A stretch of 21,916 bases of DNA from a virus (Duplodnaviria > Heunggongvirae > Uroviricota > Caudoviricetes), in IMG/VR virus record IMGVR_UViG_2531839663_000005; one strand, given 5' to 3'. A program made the translations under genes and the position numbers. The notes beneath the pieces are model-generated. The model ran no database searches. It was not told the DNA's origin and saw nothing but the letters and a program-made list of their open reading frames with translations. Within the stretch, counting starts at the first letter, position 1, and every line of letters begins with the position of its first letter. This document shows positions 2,877 through 9,268 of this stretch, piece by piece.

Positions 2877-2892
2877 TCACTTAATTAAGTGA
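2877..2892. promoter_or_regulatory. Perfect 16-bp palindrome TCACTTAATTAAGTGA, candidate operator upstream of the TerB-like gene
   Basis: Seen in sequence; lies in the AT-rich 94-bp gap about 36 nt upstream of the ATG at 2928. Confidence 0.35.
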
Positions 2893-2927
2893 TGGCGCTT
2901 TCACTCATCCTAAAAAGGATAAAGAGC

Positions 2928-3362
2928 ATGTTTAATAAACTGTTTGGAAAAAAAGTAGCAGCGGCAAAAGTTGAACTTAAGAAAGTGGAAAATCGCGATC
3001 TTATGGAAGCTATTGTCGGTGGTTGTCTTTTGGTATCTGCCGCCGATGGCGAGATCGAAAAAGAAGAAACCAGCAAGCTGGATCAGCTTATTCGCTCTAA
3101 CCCGCGCCTTGCGCATTTCGGCAATGAAATCACATCCACCATCAACCGCTATACGGAACAGCTTGAAGCTGGGTTCCGCGTTGGCCGCATGAACATTTTG
3201 CGCGAAATCGACGACATCAAAAACGATCCGAAAGAAGCCGAAGAAGTCTTCGTCAACATGCTGACTATCGCCGAAGCGGACGGCCAGATCGAACCGGAAG
3301 AACAAAAGGTGCTGGAAGAGGTCGGGCGCCGTCTGGGGCTGCGTGTTGAGGATTATCTCTGA
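2928..3362 (+). CDS. TerB-like domain protein (144 aa)
   Basis: Two TerB-like segments (LLVSAADGEIEKEETSKL and LTIAEADGQIEPEEQKVL); ATG at 2928 with AGGA upstream; the ORF-track start at 2889 lacks an SD. Confidence 0.6.
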   Translation: MFNKLFGKKVAAAKVELKKVENRDLMEAIVGGCLLVSAADGEIEKEETSKLDQLIRSNPRLAHFGNEITSTINRYTEQLEAGFRVGRMNILREIDDIKNDPKEAEEVFVNMLTIAEADGQIEPEEQKVLEEVGRRLGLRVEDYL

Positions 3363-3800: not shown

Positions 3801-4772
3801 ATGATCCGCCCGTTCATCAAATGGGCAGGGGGTAAAACCCGTGTCCTTCCTGACCTGCTGCCACACCTTCCTACAGCCGACTGCCTGATCGAACCGTTCG
3901 TAGGCGGCGCGTCGGTATTTCTGGCGACTGAATACCGCCGCTATGTGCTGGCTGATATCAACCCGGATCTTATTAACCTGTATCGGGAAGTCACCCGTTA
4001 CCCGGACTTAGTGATCGATGCGGCCCGCGAACTGTTCAACAGTAAGAACAGCCCGCAGGGATACAACGAAGTCCGCGCCGCGTTCAATAAGCAGGTGGGT
4101 ACGGTAAAAAGCGGTGGGTTGCGTTATGGCGCTGAAATGGCGTGCATTATGCGCGCTGCTCAATTCCTGTATCTGAATCGCCACGGTTATAACGGCTTAT
4201 GCCGATACAGTCGGAAGACCGGCTTTAACGTGCCGTTTGGCAAGTATAAGAGCGTCTACTTTCCAGAAAATGAAATCCGCCTGTTTGCCGAAAAGGCCAA
4301 CGATACAAAGGCAATATTTCTTTGCGCGCCGTTCCAGCGTTCTCTACAGGTCGTCACGGGTGGCGATGTTCTCGTTTACTGCGATCCGCCTTACCTGCCT
4401 GAAAGCAAAACAGCCGATTTTACCCAATACCACACCGAACCATTCACGGAAGACAACCACCGCCAGTTAGTCCAGGCACTGCTGGAAGTTAACCGTAAGC
4501 ATGGCGTGAAGGTCGTCATTTCCAACAGCGACACCGAAGCCACCCGCGCGATTTATCAGCCCTTCAAGATGCACGAAATCAGCGTGCAACGTTCCGTCAG
4601 CACTGACAAAGACAACCGACAGAAGGCCAAAGAAGTGATCGGCGTGCTGCCTGTCTGCGACTGCTGCGGGCGTTACGGCGGCGGTTGCCCTGATTGTGGC
4701 GCCGTGATGGGTGATGCGACTTACAACGCGATGGTTGCGGCGGGCACGTTTGACGATCTGGAGGCTTTTTAA
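3801..4772 (+). CDS. dam: Dam-family N6-adenine DNA methyltransferase with a Cys-rich C-terminal tail
   Basis: N-terminal KWAGGK and EPFVGGASVF (AdoMet-binding) and DPPY catalytic motif; C-terminal CDCCGRYGGGCPDCG cluster not present in host Dam. Confidence 0.85.
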   Translation: MIRPFIKWAGGKTRVLPDLLPHLPTADCLIEPFVGGASVFLATEYRRYVLADINPDLINLYREVTRYPDLVIDAARELFNSKNSPQGYNEVRAAFNKQVGTVKSGGLRYGAEMACIMRAAQFLYLNRHGYNGLCRYSRKTGFNVPFGKYKSVYFPENEIRLFAEKANDTKAIFLCAPFQRSLQVVTGGDVLVYCDPPYLPESKTADFTQYHTEPFTEDNHRQLVQALLEVNRKHGVKVVISNSDTEATRAIYQPFKMHEISVQRSVSTDKDNRQKAKEVIGVLPVCDCCGRYGGGCPDCGAVMGDATYNAMVAAGTFDDLEAF

Positions 4773-5077
4773 TGGCAAAAATCTATATCGCTGGCCCGAT
4801 GAGCGGTTTGCCTGGATTCAATCGGCAGGCATTTAACCGTGCAGCCGGGCACGTAGTGCGACGCGGAAACGTTGCCCTTAATCCGGCGATTTTGCCGGAT
4901 GGATTAGAGCAGGCGGAATACATGGATATTTGCTTCGCCATGTTGCGTTGTGCTGACGAGATCTTCTTGCTGGATGGCTGGCAGCAGTCTGCCGGGGCAA
5001 GAGCAGAATGCGCGTTAGCTCAAAAGCTGGGGTTGAAGATCCAGCACCAGACGATCGATCGGTTCACGGGGGCGTAA
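4772..5077 (+). CDS. DUF4406-like protein (nucleoside 2-deoxyribosyltransferase-like fold), 101 aa
   Basis: N-terminal MAKIYIAGPMSG motif recalled as typical of DUF4406; GGAGG upstream; start overlaps the dam stop (TAATG) and its stop overlaps the A start. Confidence 0.6.
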   Translation: MAKIYIAGPMSGLPGFNRQAFNRAAGHVVRRGNVALNPAILPDGLEQAEYMDICFAMLRCADEIFLLDGWQQSAGARAECALAQKLGLKIQHQTIDRFTGA

Positions 5078-7434
5078 TGACCGCCGTAACCCGTGGCCGT
5101 CGCGCGCCCTCTCCACCTCCACCGTATCCGGGTAACGCTGACAATGCTCTCCCTTACGCTTATGGCGGGAACAAACCATACCAGCCGATTGGCGTTGATG
5201 TAGCGCCGGGGCTGGATGGTTTCGACTATCTCACGCCGGACGGCACGCGTAAGCATATTGCGTTCAGTGAACTGGTAGCGGAAGACGAAAAGCCGGAACG
5301 CAGTAAGCTGCTGCGTCGCCGTCTGGCTTCTCTTCCGCAGTATATCCGCCGTCACTTTGCCGCGAAGCTGGATGCGCTGGACGCGAAAGACCGTAAAGCG
5401 GCAGATCTCTGGCTGGTTAATACCTTTGAGCGCCACGTATTAACGCGTATTGATAGCGTCAACAGTGTTTACCAGCCTGACACTGTGATGCCCGGCATTC
5501 TGCTACCAATCCGCGATCAGCTTTTCCGTATGCTTTGGGCAGGGAAAAAAGAGTTAAAAAGACTGGCTTATACGCTTGCCGATATCTTTACGAGAGAGTT
5601 TATTCGCGAGTCCGATCACCAGTTGGCGCGCACCGGCGATCCTGAGTTCGCGGCGCTTTCTGGCTATGGCCGTATTGCGTCGCTGGCGGTGCATCTGAAA
5701 ACGCCGATCCCAGGTTGGACAGCATATTGCAATGAAGAACTTGAAGCGGAGGACGCGTTACGCGCGGTTCTCCGTCTTGAGTCACCGCAGTGGTGGTTAA
5801 ACCGCCTGCGCCGTATCCATGCCCGGTGGCGTGAGCATTTGATGATCGCAGCGGGATACGTCCAGAAAAAATCTTCCCCATACAGTAGTGCCCCGTGCCT
5901 TACGGAATGGCTGGCCCAGAAAAAGGCTAACCGTGAATACCTCAAGGCTATGGAACTGGAAGACCAGGACACGGGCGAGCGCATTTCACTGATCGATAAA
6001 GTCGCCGGCAGTGTTGCCAATCCGGCCAACCGTCGCCGCGAACTCATGACGAGAATGCGCGGGTTTGAAGATCTGGCGAAGCTGGAAGGGTTGGCCGGTG
6101 ATTTCTACACGCTGACAGCACCTTCCCGTTACCACTCCATGCAGCATAACGGGCGCCGCAATAATAAATACTGTGGCGCGTCGCCGCGCGAGACGCAGCA
6201 ATATCTTTGCAAAGTCTGGGCGAGAACCCGCGCAGCTTGGAAGAGAAAAGGGATCCGCGTCTTTGGTTTCCGCGTGGTCGAACCGCACCACGATGCAACA
6301 CCCCACTGGCATTTACTTCTTTTTATGCGCCCGGAATGCGTCGAGCAGGCGCGCGAAATCTTCCGTAAATATGCCCTGAAAGAAGACGGCAACGAACCGG
6401 GAGCGCAGGAAAACCGCTTTCAGGTTGTGCCGATCGACGATGCCCACGGCAGCGCAACCGGCTACATAGCGAAATACATTTCGAAGAATATCGACGGCTT
6501 CGCGCTGGATGGTGAGAAGGACGACGAAACCGGGGAAGACCTGAAAGAAATGTCACTCCGCGTTAGTGCGTGGGCATCGCGCTGGGCTATTCGCCAGTTT
6601 CAGCAGATCGGCGGTGCGCCGGTCACGGTATATCGGGAACTTCGCCGCCTGGGCGATCGCGAACTGGTGTTACACCCTGAACTGGAAACCGCCCGGCAGG
6701 CCGCTAACGGTGGCGAATGGGATAACTACGTATTAGCCCAGGGTGGCCCGTTGGTTGAGCGCGATAAGCTGCGCATCCGTCTGAACTATGAAACCACTGA
6801 AAACGGCAACGCCTACGGTGATAACGTCCAGCGAATCACTGGTATTTACTGCCCGATTACGGGCAATGACTCTTTGATCTTCACCCGCACCACTCAATAC
6901 AAAATCGTGCCGAAGCGCCAGAGCGCTGACGGTGTGGCCGTTGACGTTGGTTTTTCAGGCGGCAGCGCCGCCCCTCGGAGTTCTGTCAATAACTGTACGC
7001 GGGATCCCGCGACATGTGCAGACGGTCTTGAACATGCCGATCACGAAGTGGGCGAGACGGTTAATTTTGATGCGCTTTCACGGCAGGAAAAGCGAGAACT
7101 GGCGCAGCGGCTTAGTGACGATGTGCGAAGTAAGCGTAAAAAACGGCCATCGGAACGGGAAGAGGGGGCCGGGCTATCCGTGAAAGAGCAGCAGATCAGT
7201 GAACTGCTGGTGCTGCGTGGAATTGATGCCAGTGCCGGAATGGTCAGATCGATGATGGCCGGTGCATCAGTGGCGTGTGGAGATCTTGTTATGACAGTGC
7301 AGGACGGGCGGCTGGTATCGCGCAACCGCGCAGCGTCCGGGCTGGATAAGCTGCCGTCGCAGGTCATGGCAGCGAAGAAAAAGACAAGTGACCTCGTGAA
7401 TAGGATGAAGGCTGCTTTTTCGGGGCGGAAGTAG
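5077..7434 (+). CDS. A: Rolling-circle replication initiation endonuclease (P2 gpA-like)
   Basis: 785 aa from ATG 5077 (overlapping upstream TAA; ORF-track start 5008 rejected); HUH-type motif EPHHDATPHWHLLLF and active-site Tyr region GYIAKYISKN. Confidence 0.9.
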   Translation: MTAVTRGRRAPSPPPPYPGNADNALPYAYGGNKPYQPIGVDVAPGLDGFDYLTPDGTRKHIAFSELVAEDEKPERSKLLRRRLASLPQYIRRHFAAKLDALDAKDRKAADLWLVNTFERHVLTRIDSVNSVYQPDTVMPGILLPIRDQLFRMLWAGKKELKRLAYTLADIFTREFIRESDHQLARTGDPEFAALSGYGRIASLAVHLKTPIPGWTAYCNEELEAEDALRAVLRLESPQWWLNRLRRIHARWREHLMIAAGYVQKKSSPYSSAPCLTEWLAQKKANREYLKAMELEDQDTGERISLIDKVAGSVANPANRRRELMTRMRGFEDLAKLEGLAGDFYTLTAPSRYHSMQHNGRRNNKYCGASPRETQQYLCKVWARTRAAWKRKGIRVFGFRVVEPHHDATPHWHLLLFMRPECVEQAREIFRKYALKEDGNEPGAQENRFQVVPIDDAHGSATGYIAKYISKNIDGFALDGEKDDETGEDLKEMSLRVSAWASRWAIRQFQQIGGAPVTVYRELRRLGDRELVLHPELETARQAANGGEWDNYVLAQGGPLVERDKLRIRLNYETTENGNAYGDNVQRITGIYCPITGNDSLIFTRTTQYKIVPKRQSADGVAVDVGFSGGSAAPRSSVNNCTRDPATCADGLEHADHEVGETVNFDALSRQEKRELAQRLSDDVRSKRKKRPSEREEGAGLSVKEQQISELLVLRGIDASAGMVRSMMAGASVACGDLVMTVQDGRLVSRNRAASGLDKLPSQVMAAKKKTSDLVNRMKAAFSGRK
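6973..6995 (+). other. Candidate replication origin / gpA nick site inside gene A
   Basis: CCTCGGAGTTCTGTCAATAACTG resembles my recollection of the P2 ori (inside gene A, about 1.9 kb from its start); memory-based, not verified. Confidence 0.3.
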
Positions 7435-7502
7435 GGCGCCGATAGGCATGGCAGGTTTTGACAATGTGAAACCGAATTTCTTCAAATCGCGAGCAGATAG
7501 CA

Positions 7503-7521
7503 GGCGGTAAAGCTTACCGCC
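7503..7521. terminator. Hairpin GGCGGTAA-agc-TTACCGCC between convergent gene A and the Doc-like gene (weak candidate bidirectional terminator)
   Basis: 8-bp perfect stem with 3-nt loop seen in sequence; no adjacent U-run on either strand, so weak. Confidence 0.3.
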
Positions 7522-7536
7522 GCAGCGCAAAATATC

Positions 7537-8004
7537 TTAATCGCCTTCATGAATGTTATTTTGATGATCCATTATCGCCATTGCCAGTTCCAGCTTAGTG
7601 CTTTCTAATAATTCCTCACATAGAACCAAATCATGAATAATCTGTTGTAGTAAATCCTTGCTGACAGCGCTATCCGCAACCCAAACAGCAATGTTCTCCA
7701 TTTCTTGGACAAAGAGCTTTACACAATGCTCAAACCCATTGATTTCAAGGAAGAATGCGGAGAGAAATATTCCGGATCTTTTATTGCCATCAGTAAAAGC
7801 GTGAAGTTTGTTCACTGAAAAAAACAAATGTGTGAGCTTTGACTCAAAGCTTGGGTAGTACCAATCATTTTGGATATGATCGAGGACACTCTCCAGTACT
7901 CCTCGATCGCGAATGCCTTGTAAACCGCCAGAGCGTTCAATGATGTGATCATGTACTGCTATGGCGTGCTCAATATCAAAGTAATTAAACTGAATCTCAT
8001 CCAT
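7537..8004 (-). CDS. Doc/Fic-family protein (death-on-curing-like toxin), 155 aa
   Basis: Fic/Doc active-site motif HAFTDGNKR (encoded at 7777-7803); GAGGG SD 7 nt upstream; 12 nt downstream of the partner gene stop; AT-rich compared with flanking phage genes. Confidence 0.8.
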   Translation of the reverse strand: MDEIQFNYFDIEHAIAVHDHIIERSGGLQGIRDRGVLESVLDHIQNDWYYPSFESKLTHLFFSVNKLHAFTDGNKRSGIFLSAFFLEINGFEHCVKLFVQEMENIAVWVADSAVSKDLLQQIIHDLVLCEELLESTKLELAMAIMDHQNNIHEGD

Positions 8005-8016
8005 GGCAGCACCCTC

Positions 8017-9030
8017 TTAGCGATCTTTTAAGCGTTTAAACACTTCAAGAGTTTCAGGGTCATTGAGTCTCTCTTCGAGTGACTTGCTTTTCTCGCCTAA
8101 GAATCTCTCAAAGTCGCTTTCTGGTACCGATCGGACATAAGCCTCAAGTTTTTCATGCAAGGCATCACGGAAGCATAGATCCCTGCTCGCCATTTTGGTG
8201 CGAACATCAACCAGCATTGGCTCGTATAAGGGATGCTTTTCCATTGTTGATAAGATGGATTCTGCTTCTTTATATGTGAGTTTTCTGCCCAGGTGGGTGG
8301 CTTTTTGTTTTATCTCGTGAGCGAGGCCAGCTTCGAAACTAGCAATTAAGGTGAGAACCTCAGAATACATCGTGTCACGAATTTTATCGTTTTGATGTAG
8401 TTTCAGCACCTTGCGGTACTCATTTGCATTCTCATGGAAAATGCTCTGATAAATCGCATTGGTGAGTTTTCCAAACTTCCAACCATTGGCATCTACATAA
8501 TCATTAAGAGCATCGGTGAACTGTTTCCGATAGCTTTCTTCCTTGAATGCTGCAACAAGATAATCTTCATCTCTTTGGTTGATAAATTTTGTATGTCCGC
8601 CAGCGCGTTCTGCCAGTGTGTCGATAACGATATCAAGTAAACGTGTTCGAATGATCCTCGCTTGCTCACTTTCAACAAGCAACATGGCAAGGTTTAATAC
8701 GGCTCGAAATTTAAACACTCCAAGAACAGACGTTTTGGTACCCTCATTCATGAGGGTACCATCTGCCACCTCTTTGAATTCCTTTAAAATTTTCCCTTTT
8801 AGAATGATGTATCCGTTGTTCTTTAATTCATCAATGTTGCTGGTTAGGTACCTTTCTATCGTTGCGTCGCTAACATCAAAAATCTCAACCAATTGATTTT
8901 TGGTAAACACTATCTCGCCATCAAATTCGATCCCGCCCAAAGCAAGATGCTTTTCGGCGTGCTTGAGTGCATACGAATTATTGAGAATGTTTTGTCTGTC
9001 GTGAGCGGAGGTTGTCAGATCCTTAGCCAT
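8017..9030 (-). CDS. RhuM-family-like protein (tentative), 337 aa; first gene of the cargo operon
   Basis: Strong ORF with AGGAAAAGG SD; N-terminal winged-helix-like segment and central NLAMLLVESEQARIIRTRLL / EYRKVL segments resemble my recollection of RhuM-family proteins. The family call is not verified. Confidence 0.7.
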   Translation of the reverse strand: MAKDLTTSAHDRQNILNNSYALKHAEKHLALGGIEFDGEIVFTKNQLVEIFDVSDATIERYLTSNIDELKNNGYIILKGKILKEFKEVADGTLMNEGTKTSVLGVFKFRAVLNLAMLLVESEQARIIRTRLLDIVIDTLAERAGGHTKFINQRDEDYLVAAFKEESYRKQFTDALNDYVDANGWKFGKLTNAIYQSIFHENANEYRKVLKLHQNDKIRDTMYSEVLTLIASFEAGLAHEIKQKATHLGRKLTYKEAESILSTMEKHPLYEPMLVDVRTKMASRDLCFRDALHEKLEAYVRSVPESDFERFLGEKSKSLEERLNDPETLEVFKRLKDR

Positions 9031-9114
9031 GCCTTTTCCTCGATAGGGATACGATGCGAGTAAGATAGCATTGATTGCTAAGGCCGGTTAGTGCGGGAGT
9101 GTTGGAAAGGGGCT

Positions 9115-9147
9115 GCATTTTTTTGAAATCCAGAAGGAAAAAAATGC
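9115..9147. repeat. Inverted repeat GCATTTTTTT-N13-AAAAAAATGC upstream of the cargo operon
   Basis: 10-bp perfect arms seen in sequence, about 85-115 bp upstream of the RhuM-like start on the minus strand; possible regulator or IHF-type site. Confidence 0.3.
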
Positions 9148-9268
9148 TGCAAAATTCCGCGCAAAACTGCACAAATTTTATGGTGGTTATTTTTCAGGAG
9201 CAGACCAGACGGGGCGGGCCTTCCGGTGGTCTGCACATTTGCACAAAAAAGCGGGGTTTCTGCGTGCG

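What the first reader, a model, noticed from the sequence alone, without database searches (positions are those of the whole stretch)
7537..9150. AT-rich minus-strand cargo operon (RhuM-like protein + Doc/Fic-family protein) in the A-cos accessory hotspot: candidate uncharacterised defence or addiction module
Seen: two tightly linked minus-strand genes (12-nt spacer carrying a GAGGG SD) transcribed against the phage early operon, with clearly lower GC than flanking genes A and Q. The distal gene has the Fic/Doc catalytic motif HAFTDGNKR. The proximal 337-aa gene has a winged-helix-like N-terminus and RhuM-like segments. Established: in P2 this exact position, between A and cos, holds the lysogen-expressed old and tin genes, and this site is a recognised hotspot for anti-phage cargo in P2-like prophages. 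Doc-family enzymes are translation-targeting toxins. Inference: the partner is far too large to be a Phd-type antitoxin, so this is not a canonical phd-doc pair. The large partner may be a sensor or regulator that releases the Doc-like effector on superinfection. Whether this pairing is already catalogued cannot be decided without a database search.
Basis: partly seen in the sequence, partly recalled or inferred. Interest (0 to 1): 0.85.

Follow-up and report, generated by a model that had tools for sequence, protein, structure and literature searches.

The report
Doc-toxin gene pair in P2 prophage hotspot
A prophage carries a tightly linked gene pair, a Doc-type toxin and a large DNA-binding partner; the same pair usually sits inside restriction systems in other bacteria, is in a defence-candidate catalogue, and has never been tested.

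Summary
Two minus-strand genes, A (9030-8017, 337 aa) and B (8004-7537, 155 aa), are separated by 12 nt and form a 40-44% GC block between gpA and cos/portal of a P2-like E. coli prophage.

B is a Doc-subfamily Fic protein. Its motif HAFTDGNKR is invariant in 42 loci.

A is not demonstrably RhuM: Pfam and a profile-profile comparison were both negative. It is also not Phd-like. It has a KilA-N/ORF6N-type DNA-binding N-domain followed by a helical region.

The pair is obligate. B follows A in all 45 loci where this could be judged, from Enterobacteria to Streptococcus, Bacteroidota and Leptospira. About half of these loci place the pair co-directionally in restriction-type operons, next to PD-T4-4, DRT and Dsr1-like genes.

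The pair is already catalogued. Both proteins match PADLOC PDC-M59A and PDC-M59B full length. However, PDC-M59 was defined as a three-gene cassette, and the two-gene form, if the PADLOC letters follow gene order, was rejected by its curators. No experiment was found.

Best reading: a toxin-antitoxin-like abortive-infection or addiction module in which A restrains, and possibly senses for, a Doc kinase. This is a new member of a known kind, of moderate interest.

The parts
8017..9030 (-). Gene A: 337-aa partner protein. It has a KilA-N/ORF6N-type (winged-helix-like) DNA-binding N-domain (about aa 1-120), a helical region (aa 122-290), a flexible linker (aa 289-301) and two C-terminal helices (aa 304-336). 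It is the presumed antitoxin, regulator or sensor.
   Evidence: The ORF is. PADLOC PDC-M59A matched at 9e-105 full length. ORF6N is weak in the window protein (0.026) but hits 10 of 32 family members, best 1.2e-5. The AF2 model has pLDDT 78.9. BFVD matches are KilA-N and antirepressor proteins. The only PDB analogue is DdrC, and the match is weak. There is no RhuM or Phd homology.
7537..8004 (-). Gene B: 155-aa Doc-subfamily Fic-fold enzyme with active-site motif H68-A-F-T-D72-G-N-K75-R76. It is the presumed toxin and effector (a kinase).
   Evidence: Pfam Fic 1.1e-13. TIGR01550 DOC_P1 scored 44.6 bits against a cut-off of 38.65. PDC-M59B 2.4e-30. P1 Doc structures 3k33 and 3dd7 matched at 8e-8. 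The HxFxDGNKR motif is invariant in 42 loci. PHROG 577 'Doc-like toxin'.
8005..8016 (-). 12-nt intergenic spacer with the Shine-Dalgarno sequence GAGGG (8016-8012) for B. A and B are in the same reading frame.
   Evidence: Sequence. In relatives the distance from the A stop to the B start has a median of 2 nt and is <=17 nt in 43 of 44 loci, indicating a translationally coupled operon.
9031..9111 (-). Upstream leader of A. It contains the SD GAGGA (9041-9037) and a candidate extended -10 element TGCTATCTT (9070-9062).
   Evidence: Read directly from the sequence. TGGTATCTT lies at the same distance from the start codon in the Citrobacter relative L002, and TATAAT in L003. The consensus scan reported no sigma-70 site on this strand, so confidence is low.
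9112..9150 (.). 13-nt inverted repeat GCTGCATTTTTTT/AAAAAAATGCTGC with a 13-nt spacer, at the junction between the cargo and the conserved cos-side flank. Its function is unknown.
   Evidence: -16.5 kcal/mol, z -2.2. Homology to E. coli P2-like prophages starts at about 9147. The repeat is absent upstream of A in L002 and L003, so it is not a family-wide operator.
7503..7521 (.). Hairpin GGCGGTAA-GCT-TTACCGCC between the convergent genes B and gpA. It is a possible bidirectional terminator but has no U tract.
   Evidence: The surrounding region is not more structured than shuffled sequence (z -0.44), so confidence is low.

Best explanation
The cassette is a self-contained two-gene toxin module carried as accessory cargo in the cos-proximal hotspot of a P2-like E. 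coli prophage.

B is an active Doc-type Fic-fold enzyme. By analogy with P1 Doc it probably phosphorylates EF-Tu and stops translation.

A is its obligate, translationally coupled partner. It is a KilA-N/ORF6N-type DNA-binding protein with a long helical region, unrelated to Phd. A most likely holds B inactive, possibly through its flexibly tethered C-terminal helices, and most likely regulates the operon.

Loss or titration of A would free B and arrest the cell. The trigger could be phage infection (abortive infection) or loss of the element (addiction). The same module is normally nested inside restriction-type operons, where it would act as a second line of defence when restriction fails.

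Shown here:
- Doc identity and an invariant catalytic motif.
- Obligate pairing and tight operon coupling.
- Distribution in defence loci, prophage morons and satellites.
- Location in a documented hotspot.

Inferred:
- Toxicity of B and its target.
- Neutralisation of B by A.
- The trigger.
- Any anti-phage phenotype.
For: B passes the curated Doc and Fic thresholds and aligns to P1 Doc. H68, F70, D72, G73, N74, K75 and R76 are invariant across 42 paired loci. The motif has Lys where AMPylating Fic enzymes have Gly, and it lacks the second Arg of the GNGRxxR form; by my reading and established knowledge of the family, this is the Doc kinase signature.

B lies immediately downstream of A on the same strand in all 45 loci where it could be judged, out of 50 loci spanning Gammaproteobacteria, Campylobacterota, Leptospira, Bacteroidota and Saccharimonadia. 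The same arrangement occurs in a Streptococcus phage satellite. Median spacing is 2 nt. Pairwise identities of A and B correlate (r=0.89), so they are inherited as a unit. No other conserved small ORF exists that could serve as antitoxin.

About 25 of 46 intact pairs are co-directional with restriction-type systems: type I R-M, type III R-M, MmeI-type, McrC-like or PLD-helicase. Some abut the validated systems PD-T4-4 and DRT UG5-nitrilase, and others a Dsr1-like gene or a type IV restriction enzyme.

Both proteins match PADLOC PDC-M59A and PDC-M59B. In E. coli the pair is standalone cargo of two unrelated prophage types, P2-like and P22-like. The P2 slot is a documented defence hotspot.

There is a precedent for a large multidomain antitoxin that neutralises Doc through C-terminal helices: PanA with its Phd-C element. 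The AF2 model of A shows a low-confidence linker (aa 289-301) followed by two C-terminal helices.
Against: No experiment on this pair was found, and PDCs are explicitly untested.

The two-gene cassette presumed to correspond to A>>B was marked 'Reject' in the PADLOC curation table, and PDC-M59 proper has a third gene that is absent from the window.

A shows no detectable similarity to Phd or to any known antitoxin family, so neutralisation by A rests on gene linkage alone.

A is as conserved as B (mean pairwise identity 0.63 against 0.64). This is atypical for antitoxins and may mean that A has a function of its own.

B has an extension of about 25 residues beyond P1 Doc at its C-terminus. This could be an intramolecular regulator.

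No A-B complex model could be computed. No consensus promoter was found.
Confidence: 0.55

Rival explanations
1. The pair is a pure addiction (post-segregational killing) module. Like phd-doc of P1, it only stabilises the prophage or mobile element that carries it and has no anti-phage role.
For: B is a homologue of P1 Doc and is annotated everywhere as a type II TA toxin. The pair rides on prophages, satellites and islands. The PADLOC curators rejected the two-gene cassette as a defence candidate.
Against: More than half of the sampled pairs sit co-directionally inside chromosomal restriction-type operons, next to PD-T4-4, DRT and Dsr1-like genes. This pattern is typical of defence genes. The P2 slot is enriched for validated anti-phage systems. 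The 337-aa, highly conserved partner is more than a labile antidote needs. The two roles are also not mutually exclusive.
Confidence: 0.2
2. A is the main actor: a KilA-N/antirepressor-like or DdrC-like DNA-binding regulator that acts on phage or host DNA. B is a non-toxic modifying enzyme that tunes A or a specific target by phosphorylation or NMPylation, so the pair is a regulatory switch and not a toxin-antitoxin pair.
For: The best fold matches of A are viral KilA-N and antirepressor proteins and, weakly, the DNA-damage-binding protein DdrC. A is as conserved as B over its full length. Anantharaman et al. proposed that partners of DOC in R-M loci are effectors in their own right.
Against: All fold matches are weak (TM 0.25-0.5, PDB E>1e-3). 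The strict Doc motif and the TA-like operon layout fit a toxin better. No catalytic-looking invariant residues are evident in A; the invariant positions are E68, M116, R128 and F198.
Confidence: 0.12
3. B is self-inhibited by its own C-terminal extension (about aa 130-155, as in class III Fic proteins). A would then be an activator or sensor that switches B on, not an antitoxin that keeps it off.
For: B is 29 residues longer than P1 Doc. The extension is a partly conserved helix containing an S-T-K-L-E-L stretch that resembles, but does not match, the [S/T]xxxE[G/N] inhibitory motif (my reading).
Against: The motif is not met: Leu stands in place of Gly/Asn. Doc-type kinases are not known to use this inhibitory helix (established knowledge).
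Confidence: 0.08
4. The cassette is a decaying or non-functional remnant acquired by horizontal transfer.
For: The block has low GC and is clearly foreign. Truncated copies exist elsewhere (L022, L047, L050, L051).
Against: Both ORFs are intact and full length relative to the PADLOC profiles. The exact proteins recur in dozens of assemblies. The catalytic motif is intact.
Confidence: 0.02

Closest known systems
Phd-Doc of phage P1 (type II toxin-antitoxin; Doc phosphorylates EF-Tu)
   Same: B is homologous to Doc (PDB 3k33, 8e-8) and has the same HxFx(D/N)(A/G)NKR motif. The partner gene is upstream and translationally coupled. The module is carried by a temperate phage.
   Different: The partner is 337 aa against 73 aa for Phd, and no Phd/YefM homology was detected (hhalign probability 0.2%). 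B has a C-terminal extension of about 25 residues. The usual context is inside restriction operons.
PADLOC phage defence candidate PDC-M59 (Payne et al. 2024 preprint, guilt-by-embedding)
   Same: A and B match the PDC-M59A and PDC-M59B HMMs full length (9e-105 and 2.4e-30). Relatives are embedded in type I R-M operons, which is how the candidate was found.
   Different: PDC-M59 is listed as a three-gene cassette (FAM_01085>>FAM_00079>>FAM_00939). The window has only two genes, and the two-gene form was marked 'Reject'. The match between PADLOC letters and FAM identifiers is inferred. The candidate is untested. Here the pair is phage cargo and is not R-M-embedded.
PanA(Phd-C)-Doc of Corynebacterium doosanense (NetFlax/Panacea antitoxins)
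   Same: A Doc toxin is paired with a large multidomain antitoxin in which C-terminal helices neutralise the toxin and the globular domain is proposed to be sensory. The A model likewise ends in two helices on a flexible linker.
   Different: A has no Panacea domain and no detectable Phd-C sequence similarity. Its globular part is KilA-N/ORF6N plus a helical bundle.
RhuM-like and DOC genes in R-M/PrrC loci (Anantharaman et al. 2013)
   Same: The genomic niche is the same: nested in R-M operons and associated with Doc. A and RhuM have a similar size (about 330-340 aa) and both have an ORF6N-like HTH N-terminus.
   Different: A does not match Pfam RhuM (PF13310). The profile-profile comparison aligned only aa 33-72 at E 0.015. 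A is therefore a distinct family.
PrrC-EcoprrI (anticodon nuclease kept latent by a type I R-M enzyme)
   Same: A translation-targeting suicide effector is encoded inside a type I R-M operon and acts as a back-up when phage defeats restriction. This is a functional analogy for the R-M-embedded copies.
   Different: The proteins are unrelated. The window copy works without any adjacent R-M system, so it cannot depend on Hsd proteins.
SoFic (single-gene Fic-domain defence system)
   Same: It is a Fic-fold enzyme with validated anti-phage activity, and a 2026 preprint abstract reports that it AMPylates EF-Tu.
   Different: SoFic is a single-gene, class II AMPylating Fic protein. B is a minimal Doc-type protein with a separate partner. 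The PADLOC scan of B listed no SoFic model among its matches.

Membership tests
Fic/Doc superfamily, Doc subfamily (PF02661; TIGR01550 DOC_P1) | Score above the curated HMM thresholds | tested here: met
   Pfam Fic scored 52.3 bits against a cut-off of 24. TIGR01550 scored 44.6 bits against 38.65.
Fic/Doc superfamily, Doc subfamily (PF02661; TIGR01550 DOC_P1) | Doc-type active-site motif HxFx(D/N)(A/G)NKR, with Lys in place of the Fic Gly and no second Arg | tested here: met
   H68-A-F-T-D-G-N-K-R76 is followed by S-G-I, so no RxxR is present. H, F, D, G, N, K and R are invariant in 42 loci and align to Doc HIFNDANKR.
Fic/Doc superfamily, Doc subfamily (PF02661; TIGR01550 DOC_P1) | Kinase activity on EF-Tu and toxicity | not testable with these tools
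   This needs expression and phosphorylation assays.
Canonical Phd-Doc type II TA | Small Phd/YefM-fold antitoxin encoded upstream | tested here: not met
   The upstream gene encodes 337 aa. There was no Phd or antitoxin Pfam hit, and hhalign against the verified Phd sequence gave probability 0.2%.
Canonical Phd-Doc type II TA | Upstream partner translationally coupled to the toxin gene | tested here: met
   The spacer is 12 nt with an SD. Median spacing is 2 nt in 44 loci.
Canonical Phd-Doc type II TA | C-terminal helical segment of the partner occupies the Doc groove | tested here: inconclusive
   The AF2 model shows a linker (aa 289-301, pLDDT<50) followed by helices 304-322 and 325-336. 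No complex model was possible, and there is no sequence similarity to Phd-C.
RhuM family (PF13310) | Match to the family HMM or profile | tested here: not met
   There was no hit at E<=1 for the window protein and none at E<=0.1 in 32 diverse members. hhalign of the A profile against a 25-sequence RhuM profile aligned only aa 33-72, at E 0.015 and probability 3%.
PADLOC candidate system PDC-M59 | Proteins match the PDC-M59A and PDC-M59B HMMs | tested here: met
   9e-105 (aa 3-336 of 337) and 2.4e-30 (aa 5-153 of 155).
PADLOC candidate system PDC-M59 | Three-gene cassette FAM_01085>>FAM_00079>>FAM_00939 | tested here: not met
   The window has room for only two genes: 102 nt lie between the B stop and the gpA stop, and about 120 nt lie upstream of A. 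The supplementary table lists the two-gene form as 'Reject'. No third component was found next to the pair in 10 neighbouring genes scanned.
PADLOC candidate system PDC-M59 | Demonstrated anti-phage activity | not testable with these tools
   The source paper calls the 145 PDCs untested. No later test was found.
Cargo of the P2-like cos-proximal defence hotspot (Rousset et al. 2022) | Located between gpA and gpQ/cos, with content that varies among related phages | tested here: met
   The flanks are gpA, portal and terminase. The same prophage with the same cargo occurs in many assemblies. The E. coli relative L060 carries a DNA adenine methylase in this slot instead. The hotspot is defined.
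KilA-N/ORF6N DNA-binding domain proteins | Match of the N-terminal domain to ORF6N/KilA-N | tested here: inconclusive
   The window protein scored ORF6N E 0.026, below the gathering score. Ten of 32 family members hit, best 1.2e-5. BFVD Foldseek gave KilA-N proteins at E 1e-4 to 3e-4 but with low TM.

The most novel reading that the evidence does not exclude
The A-B pair is a genuine, mechanistically new anti-phage system. In this reading, a 337-aa KilA-N/helical-bundle protein, conserved at 45-90% identity across six phyla, is both the antitoxin and the infection sensor for a Doc kinase. One possibility is that A is titrated by phage DNA-mimic anti-restriction proteins or by phage DNA or replication intermediates, which would explain why the pair is so often nested in restriction operons. 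That would make it the first Doc-type kinase shown to be an abortive-infection effector, and a guard of restriction systems that also works standalone on prophages.
Probability: 0.25. Interest if true: 0.65.

Novelty: new member of a known kind. Interest (0 to 1): 0.42.

Why it matters
Doc/Fic genes and their large partners nested in restriction operons have been noted since 2011-2013 and are listed among untested defence candidates. What they do is still unknown.

This copy is a compact 1.6-kb, two-gene, E. coli-native version sitting alone in a validated prophage defence hotspot. That gives independent support by location for a defence role, and it provides a convenient construct for testing.

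If it defends, it would add translation arrest by a Doc kinase to the known abortive-infection effectors. It would also identify a new, very widespread sensor or antitoxin family.

If it only stabilises the prophage, it would show that cargo in this hotspot is not always defensive.

Tried and rejected
1. RhuM assignment of A. Pfam was negative for the window protein and for 32 family members. I retrieved real PF13310 proteins, built a profile and ran hhalign. Only a 40-residue HTH match at E 0.015 resulted. Rejected.

2. Phd-like C-terminus of A. The Phd sequence was verified against the PDB. hhalign gave probability 0.2%. The shared KxLx(D/N)R C-terminal ending that I saw by eye has no statistical support.

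3. Co-folding A and B by using the in-frame read-through (A-stop-EGAA-B) as a natural linker. The tools refuse translations containing a stop codon.

5. The inverted repeat 9112-9150 as an operator for A. It is absent upstream of A in the closest relatives in other contexts, so it is not a family feature.

6. The consensus promoter scan gave nothing on the minus strand. The proposed extended -10 was found by eye only.

7. Searching for the third PDC-M59 component next to the pair in related loci. It was not found among 10 neighbouring genes.

8. Literature searches for PDC-M59, and for Doc or Fic together with anti-phage or R-M terms, found no experimental work on this pair.

9. Megablast found no copy of the cassette in INPHARED phages or complete E. 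coli genomes. Only the more sensitive blastn search found copies, at 72-76% identity.
Full report
**Observation**

Gene A is 9030..8017 (337 aa) and gene B is 8004..7537 (155 aa). They are separated by 12 nt, GAGGGTGCTGCC, with GAGGG as the ribosome-binding site for B, and they lie in the same reading frame. GC content is 0.40-0.44 between 7400 and 9200, against 0.53-0.62 on either side.

The flanking genes are a P2 gpA-type replication nickase (PHROG 91, 3e-261), a portal protein (PHROG 68) and a large terminase. Further left are an integrase, a repressor-like HTH protein, Cox, a TerB-domain protein, a D12 Dam methylase and a DUF4406 protein. The cassette therefore lies in the gpA-cos-gpQ slot of a P2-like prophage and is convergent with gpA.

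The exact A protein occurs in at least 56 assembly blocks. Every place shown is the same prophage, integrated next to cpxP-cpxRA, with the same cargo. The source names for the exact A and B proteins are Escherichia coli.

**Gene B**

B matches Pfam Fic (1.1e-13) and the NCBIfam Doc subfamily model TIGR01550 above its curated cut-off. It also matches PHROG 577 'Doc-like toxin' and the solved P1 Doc structures (3k33, 8e-8).

Its motif H68-A-F-T-D-G-N-K-R76 aligns to Doc's HIFNDANKR. The H, F, D, G, N, K and R positions are invariant in 42 independent loci. The Lys in place of the Fic Gly, and the absence of a second Arg, form the Doc (kinase) variant of the Fic motif; this is established knowledge of the family (Castro-Roa et al. 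2013, listed). B is about 29 residues longer than P1 Doc at its C-terminus.

**Gene A**

- Pfam RhuM (PF13310) does not hit the window protein at E<=1.
- It does not hit any of 32 diverse family members at E<=0.1.
- A profile of the A family, compared with a profile of 25 genuine PF13310 proteins, aligns only residues 33-72 (an HTH segment) at E 0.015 and probability 3%.

What A does have is a weak ORF6N signal: 0.026 in the window protein, and 10 of 32 members with a best value of 1.2e-5. The AlphaFold model (pLDDT 78.9) shows a mixed alpha/beta N-domain (about aa 1-120) followed by long helices. A low-confidence linker at 289-301 is followed by two C-terminal helices.

Foldseek against viral models returns KilA-N and antirepressor proteins. 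Against the PDB, the only recurring match is the Deinococcus DNA-damage-binding protein DdrC. It appears for both the full model and a separate model of residues 120-337, at weak scores (E 6e-3 and 0.038, TM 0.25-0.38). There is no solved relative by sequence and no similarity to Phd.

A is thus a distinct family of probable DNA-binding proteins. NCBI simply names it 'DNA-binding protein'.

**The pair is an obligate unit**

A scan of one genome per species returned 50 loci encoding A relatives. They come from Gammaproteobacteria, Campylobacterota, Leptospira, Bacteroidota and Saccharimonadia.
- A Doc homologue follows immediately on the same strand in all 45 loci that have an intact A gene and downstream sequence.
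- One further locus has both genes truncated.
- The remaining loci are contig ends or fragments.

The spacing between the A stop and the B start has a median of 2 nt and is <=17 nt in 43 of 44 loci. Pairwise identities of A and B across loci correlate (r=0.89), and the two proteins are equally conserved (0.63 and 0.64).

The pair is also present, at about 50% and 45% identity, in Streptococcus phage satellites, where the Doc ORF is not annotated.

**Genomic niche**

In 15 loci the pair is the distal part of a type I R-M operon (hsdR-hsdM-hsdS-...-A-B). Other loci place it co-directionally with type III R-M genes, MmeI-type enzymes with a KAP NTPase, a DUF2357/PD-(D/E)XK McrC-like gene, or a PLD-helicase-DUF3427 protein. 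Together this is about 25 of 46 intact pairs.

Direct neighbours include the validated systems PD-T4-4 (between hsdS and A) and DRT UG5-nitrilase (6-38 nt after B), as well as a Dsr1-like gene and a type IV restriction enzyme. One database protein fuses an m5C methylase to an A-like domain.

In complete E. coli genomes the window's cassette is absent at high DNA identity. However, 21 of 5,426 genomes, including strain 042, carry a 72-76% identical pair. There it sits as a standalone moron at the end of a P22-like prophage next to dinD.

In the P2-like relative L060 the gpA-cos slot holds a DNA adenine methylase instead. Rousset et al. 2022 documented this slot as a hotspot: 1,650 arrangements in 18,150 loci, with old and tin in P2 itself.

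**What is already known**

Both proteins match the PADLOC models PDC-M59A (9e-105) and PDC-M59B (2.4e-30) over their full lengths. The PDCs are 145 untested 'phage defence candidates' derived by guilt-by-embedding in BREX, DISARM and type I R-M systems.

The curation table of that preprint lists PDC-M59 as a three-gene cassette, FAM_01085>>FAM_00079>>FAM_00939, with 46 occurrences. The two-gene cassette FAM_01085>>FAM_00079 has 414 occurrences and is marked 'Reject'. That FAM_01085 and FAM_00079 correspond to A and B is my inference from gene order. The window has no room for a third gene.

Anantharaman et al. 2013 had already described DOC and RhuM-like genes in R-M/PrrC loci as a proposed multi-level defence. 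I found no experimental study of this pair.

**Mechanism**

The best-supported reading is a toxin-antitoxin-like module. B has a strictly conserved Doc active site, so it is an active enzyme and, by homology, probably a translation-arresting kinase. A cell carrying it needs a restraint. A is the only conserved, coupled partner, so it is the candidate antitoxin and probable autoregulator.

A large multidomain antitoxin for Doc has a precedent in PanA, whose two C-terminal 'Phd-C' helices neutralise Doc while the globular domain is proposed to be sensory. The A model ends in a comparable pair of helices on a flexible tether, but this is a resemblance of shape only.

The distribution in restriction operons, next to validated defence systems, in a prophage hotspot and in satellites favours a defence (abortive-infection) role over mere addiction. 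The two roles are not exclusive, and neither is shown.

I put the TA-like defence or addiction module with A restraining B at 0.55. Rivals:
- Addiction only: 0.20.
- A regulatory, non-toxic pair in which A is the main actor: 0.12.
- Self-inhibited B activated by A: 0.08.
- Non-functional remnant: 0.02.

**Verdict**

The Doc assignment, the hotspot location and the non-canonical partner are right. The RhuM label is wrong. The pairing is already catalogued as a candidate, and B is routinely annotated as a TA toxin.

This is a new member of a known but uncharacterised kind. Interest is moderate. It is not surprising to a specialist, but it is a compact, E. coli-native test case for the long-standing question of what Doc modules nested in restriction systems do.

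Noticed in passing
window 9112-9150: A 13-nt inverted repeat (GCTGCATTTTTTT / AAAAAAATGCTGC, 13-nt spacer) lies exactly at the junction between the foreign cargo and the conserved cos-side flank. As RNA it folds at -16.5 kcal/mol (z -2.2). It is not present upstream of A in relatives in other contexts.
   Followed up: partly
window 2889-3362 (+): A TerB-domain protein (PF05099, 2.9e-14) is encoded inside the P2-like early operon, upstream of a D12 Dam methylase (3801-4772) and a DUF4406 gene (4772-5077). These are further accessory genes of the prophage with unknown roles.
   Followed up: partly
L061 6955-8438 (E. coli 042, NC_017626) and L062: Twenty-one complete E. coli genomes carry a 72-76% identical A-B pair as a standalone moron at the end of a P22-like prophage, after the DNA ejection/injection genes and next to a PerC-family regulator and dinD. 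This is a second, unrelated prophage family carrying the same two-gene module.
   Followed up: partly
L001 5003-5455 (Streptococcus satellite phage Javan319, MK448426): A 150-aa Doc homologue (HMFRDGNKR) directly follows the A homologue, which is annotated 'CiaB protein', but the Doc ORF is not annotated in the GenBank record.
   Followed up: yes
L004/L009 about 6050-8008; L013 9530-12733; L043 8005-11208: Embedded defence genes are stacked inside type I R-M operons: hsdS, then PD-T4-4 A+B, then A-B. In other loci a DRT UG5-nitrilase reverse transcriptase starts 6-38 nt after B.
   Followed up: partly
protein P0246 (639 aa): This database protein fuses an N-terminal C-5 cytosine DNA methylase domain (PF00145) to a full A-like domain (residues 300-638). 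It is either a real fusion or a gene-calling artefact, and it is another link between A and R-M systems.
   Followed up: no
window 8017-9030 (protein A model): The only solved structure that recurs as a fold match, for both the full model and the C-terminal 218 residues, is Deinococcus radiodurans DdrC, a protein with a wHTH and a helical bundle that binds damaged DNA. The scores are weak (E 6e-3 and 0.038).
   Followed up: partly
L060 5244-5972 (E. coli NZ_OY754834): A closely related P2-like prophage carries a 729-bp DNA adenine methylase gene, on the opposite strand relative to the cassette here, in the same gpA-cos slot. This illustrates cargo turnover at the site.
   Followed up: yes
window 7503-7521: An 8-bp GC-rich hairpin (GGCGGTAA-GCT-TTACCGCC) without a U tract lies between the convergent genes B and gpA. 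It is a possible bidirectional terminator, but the region is not more structured than shuffled sequence (z -0.44).
   Followed up: partly
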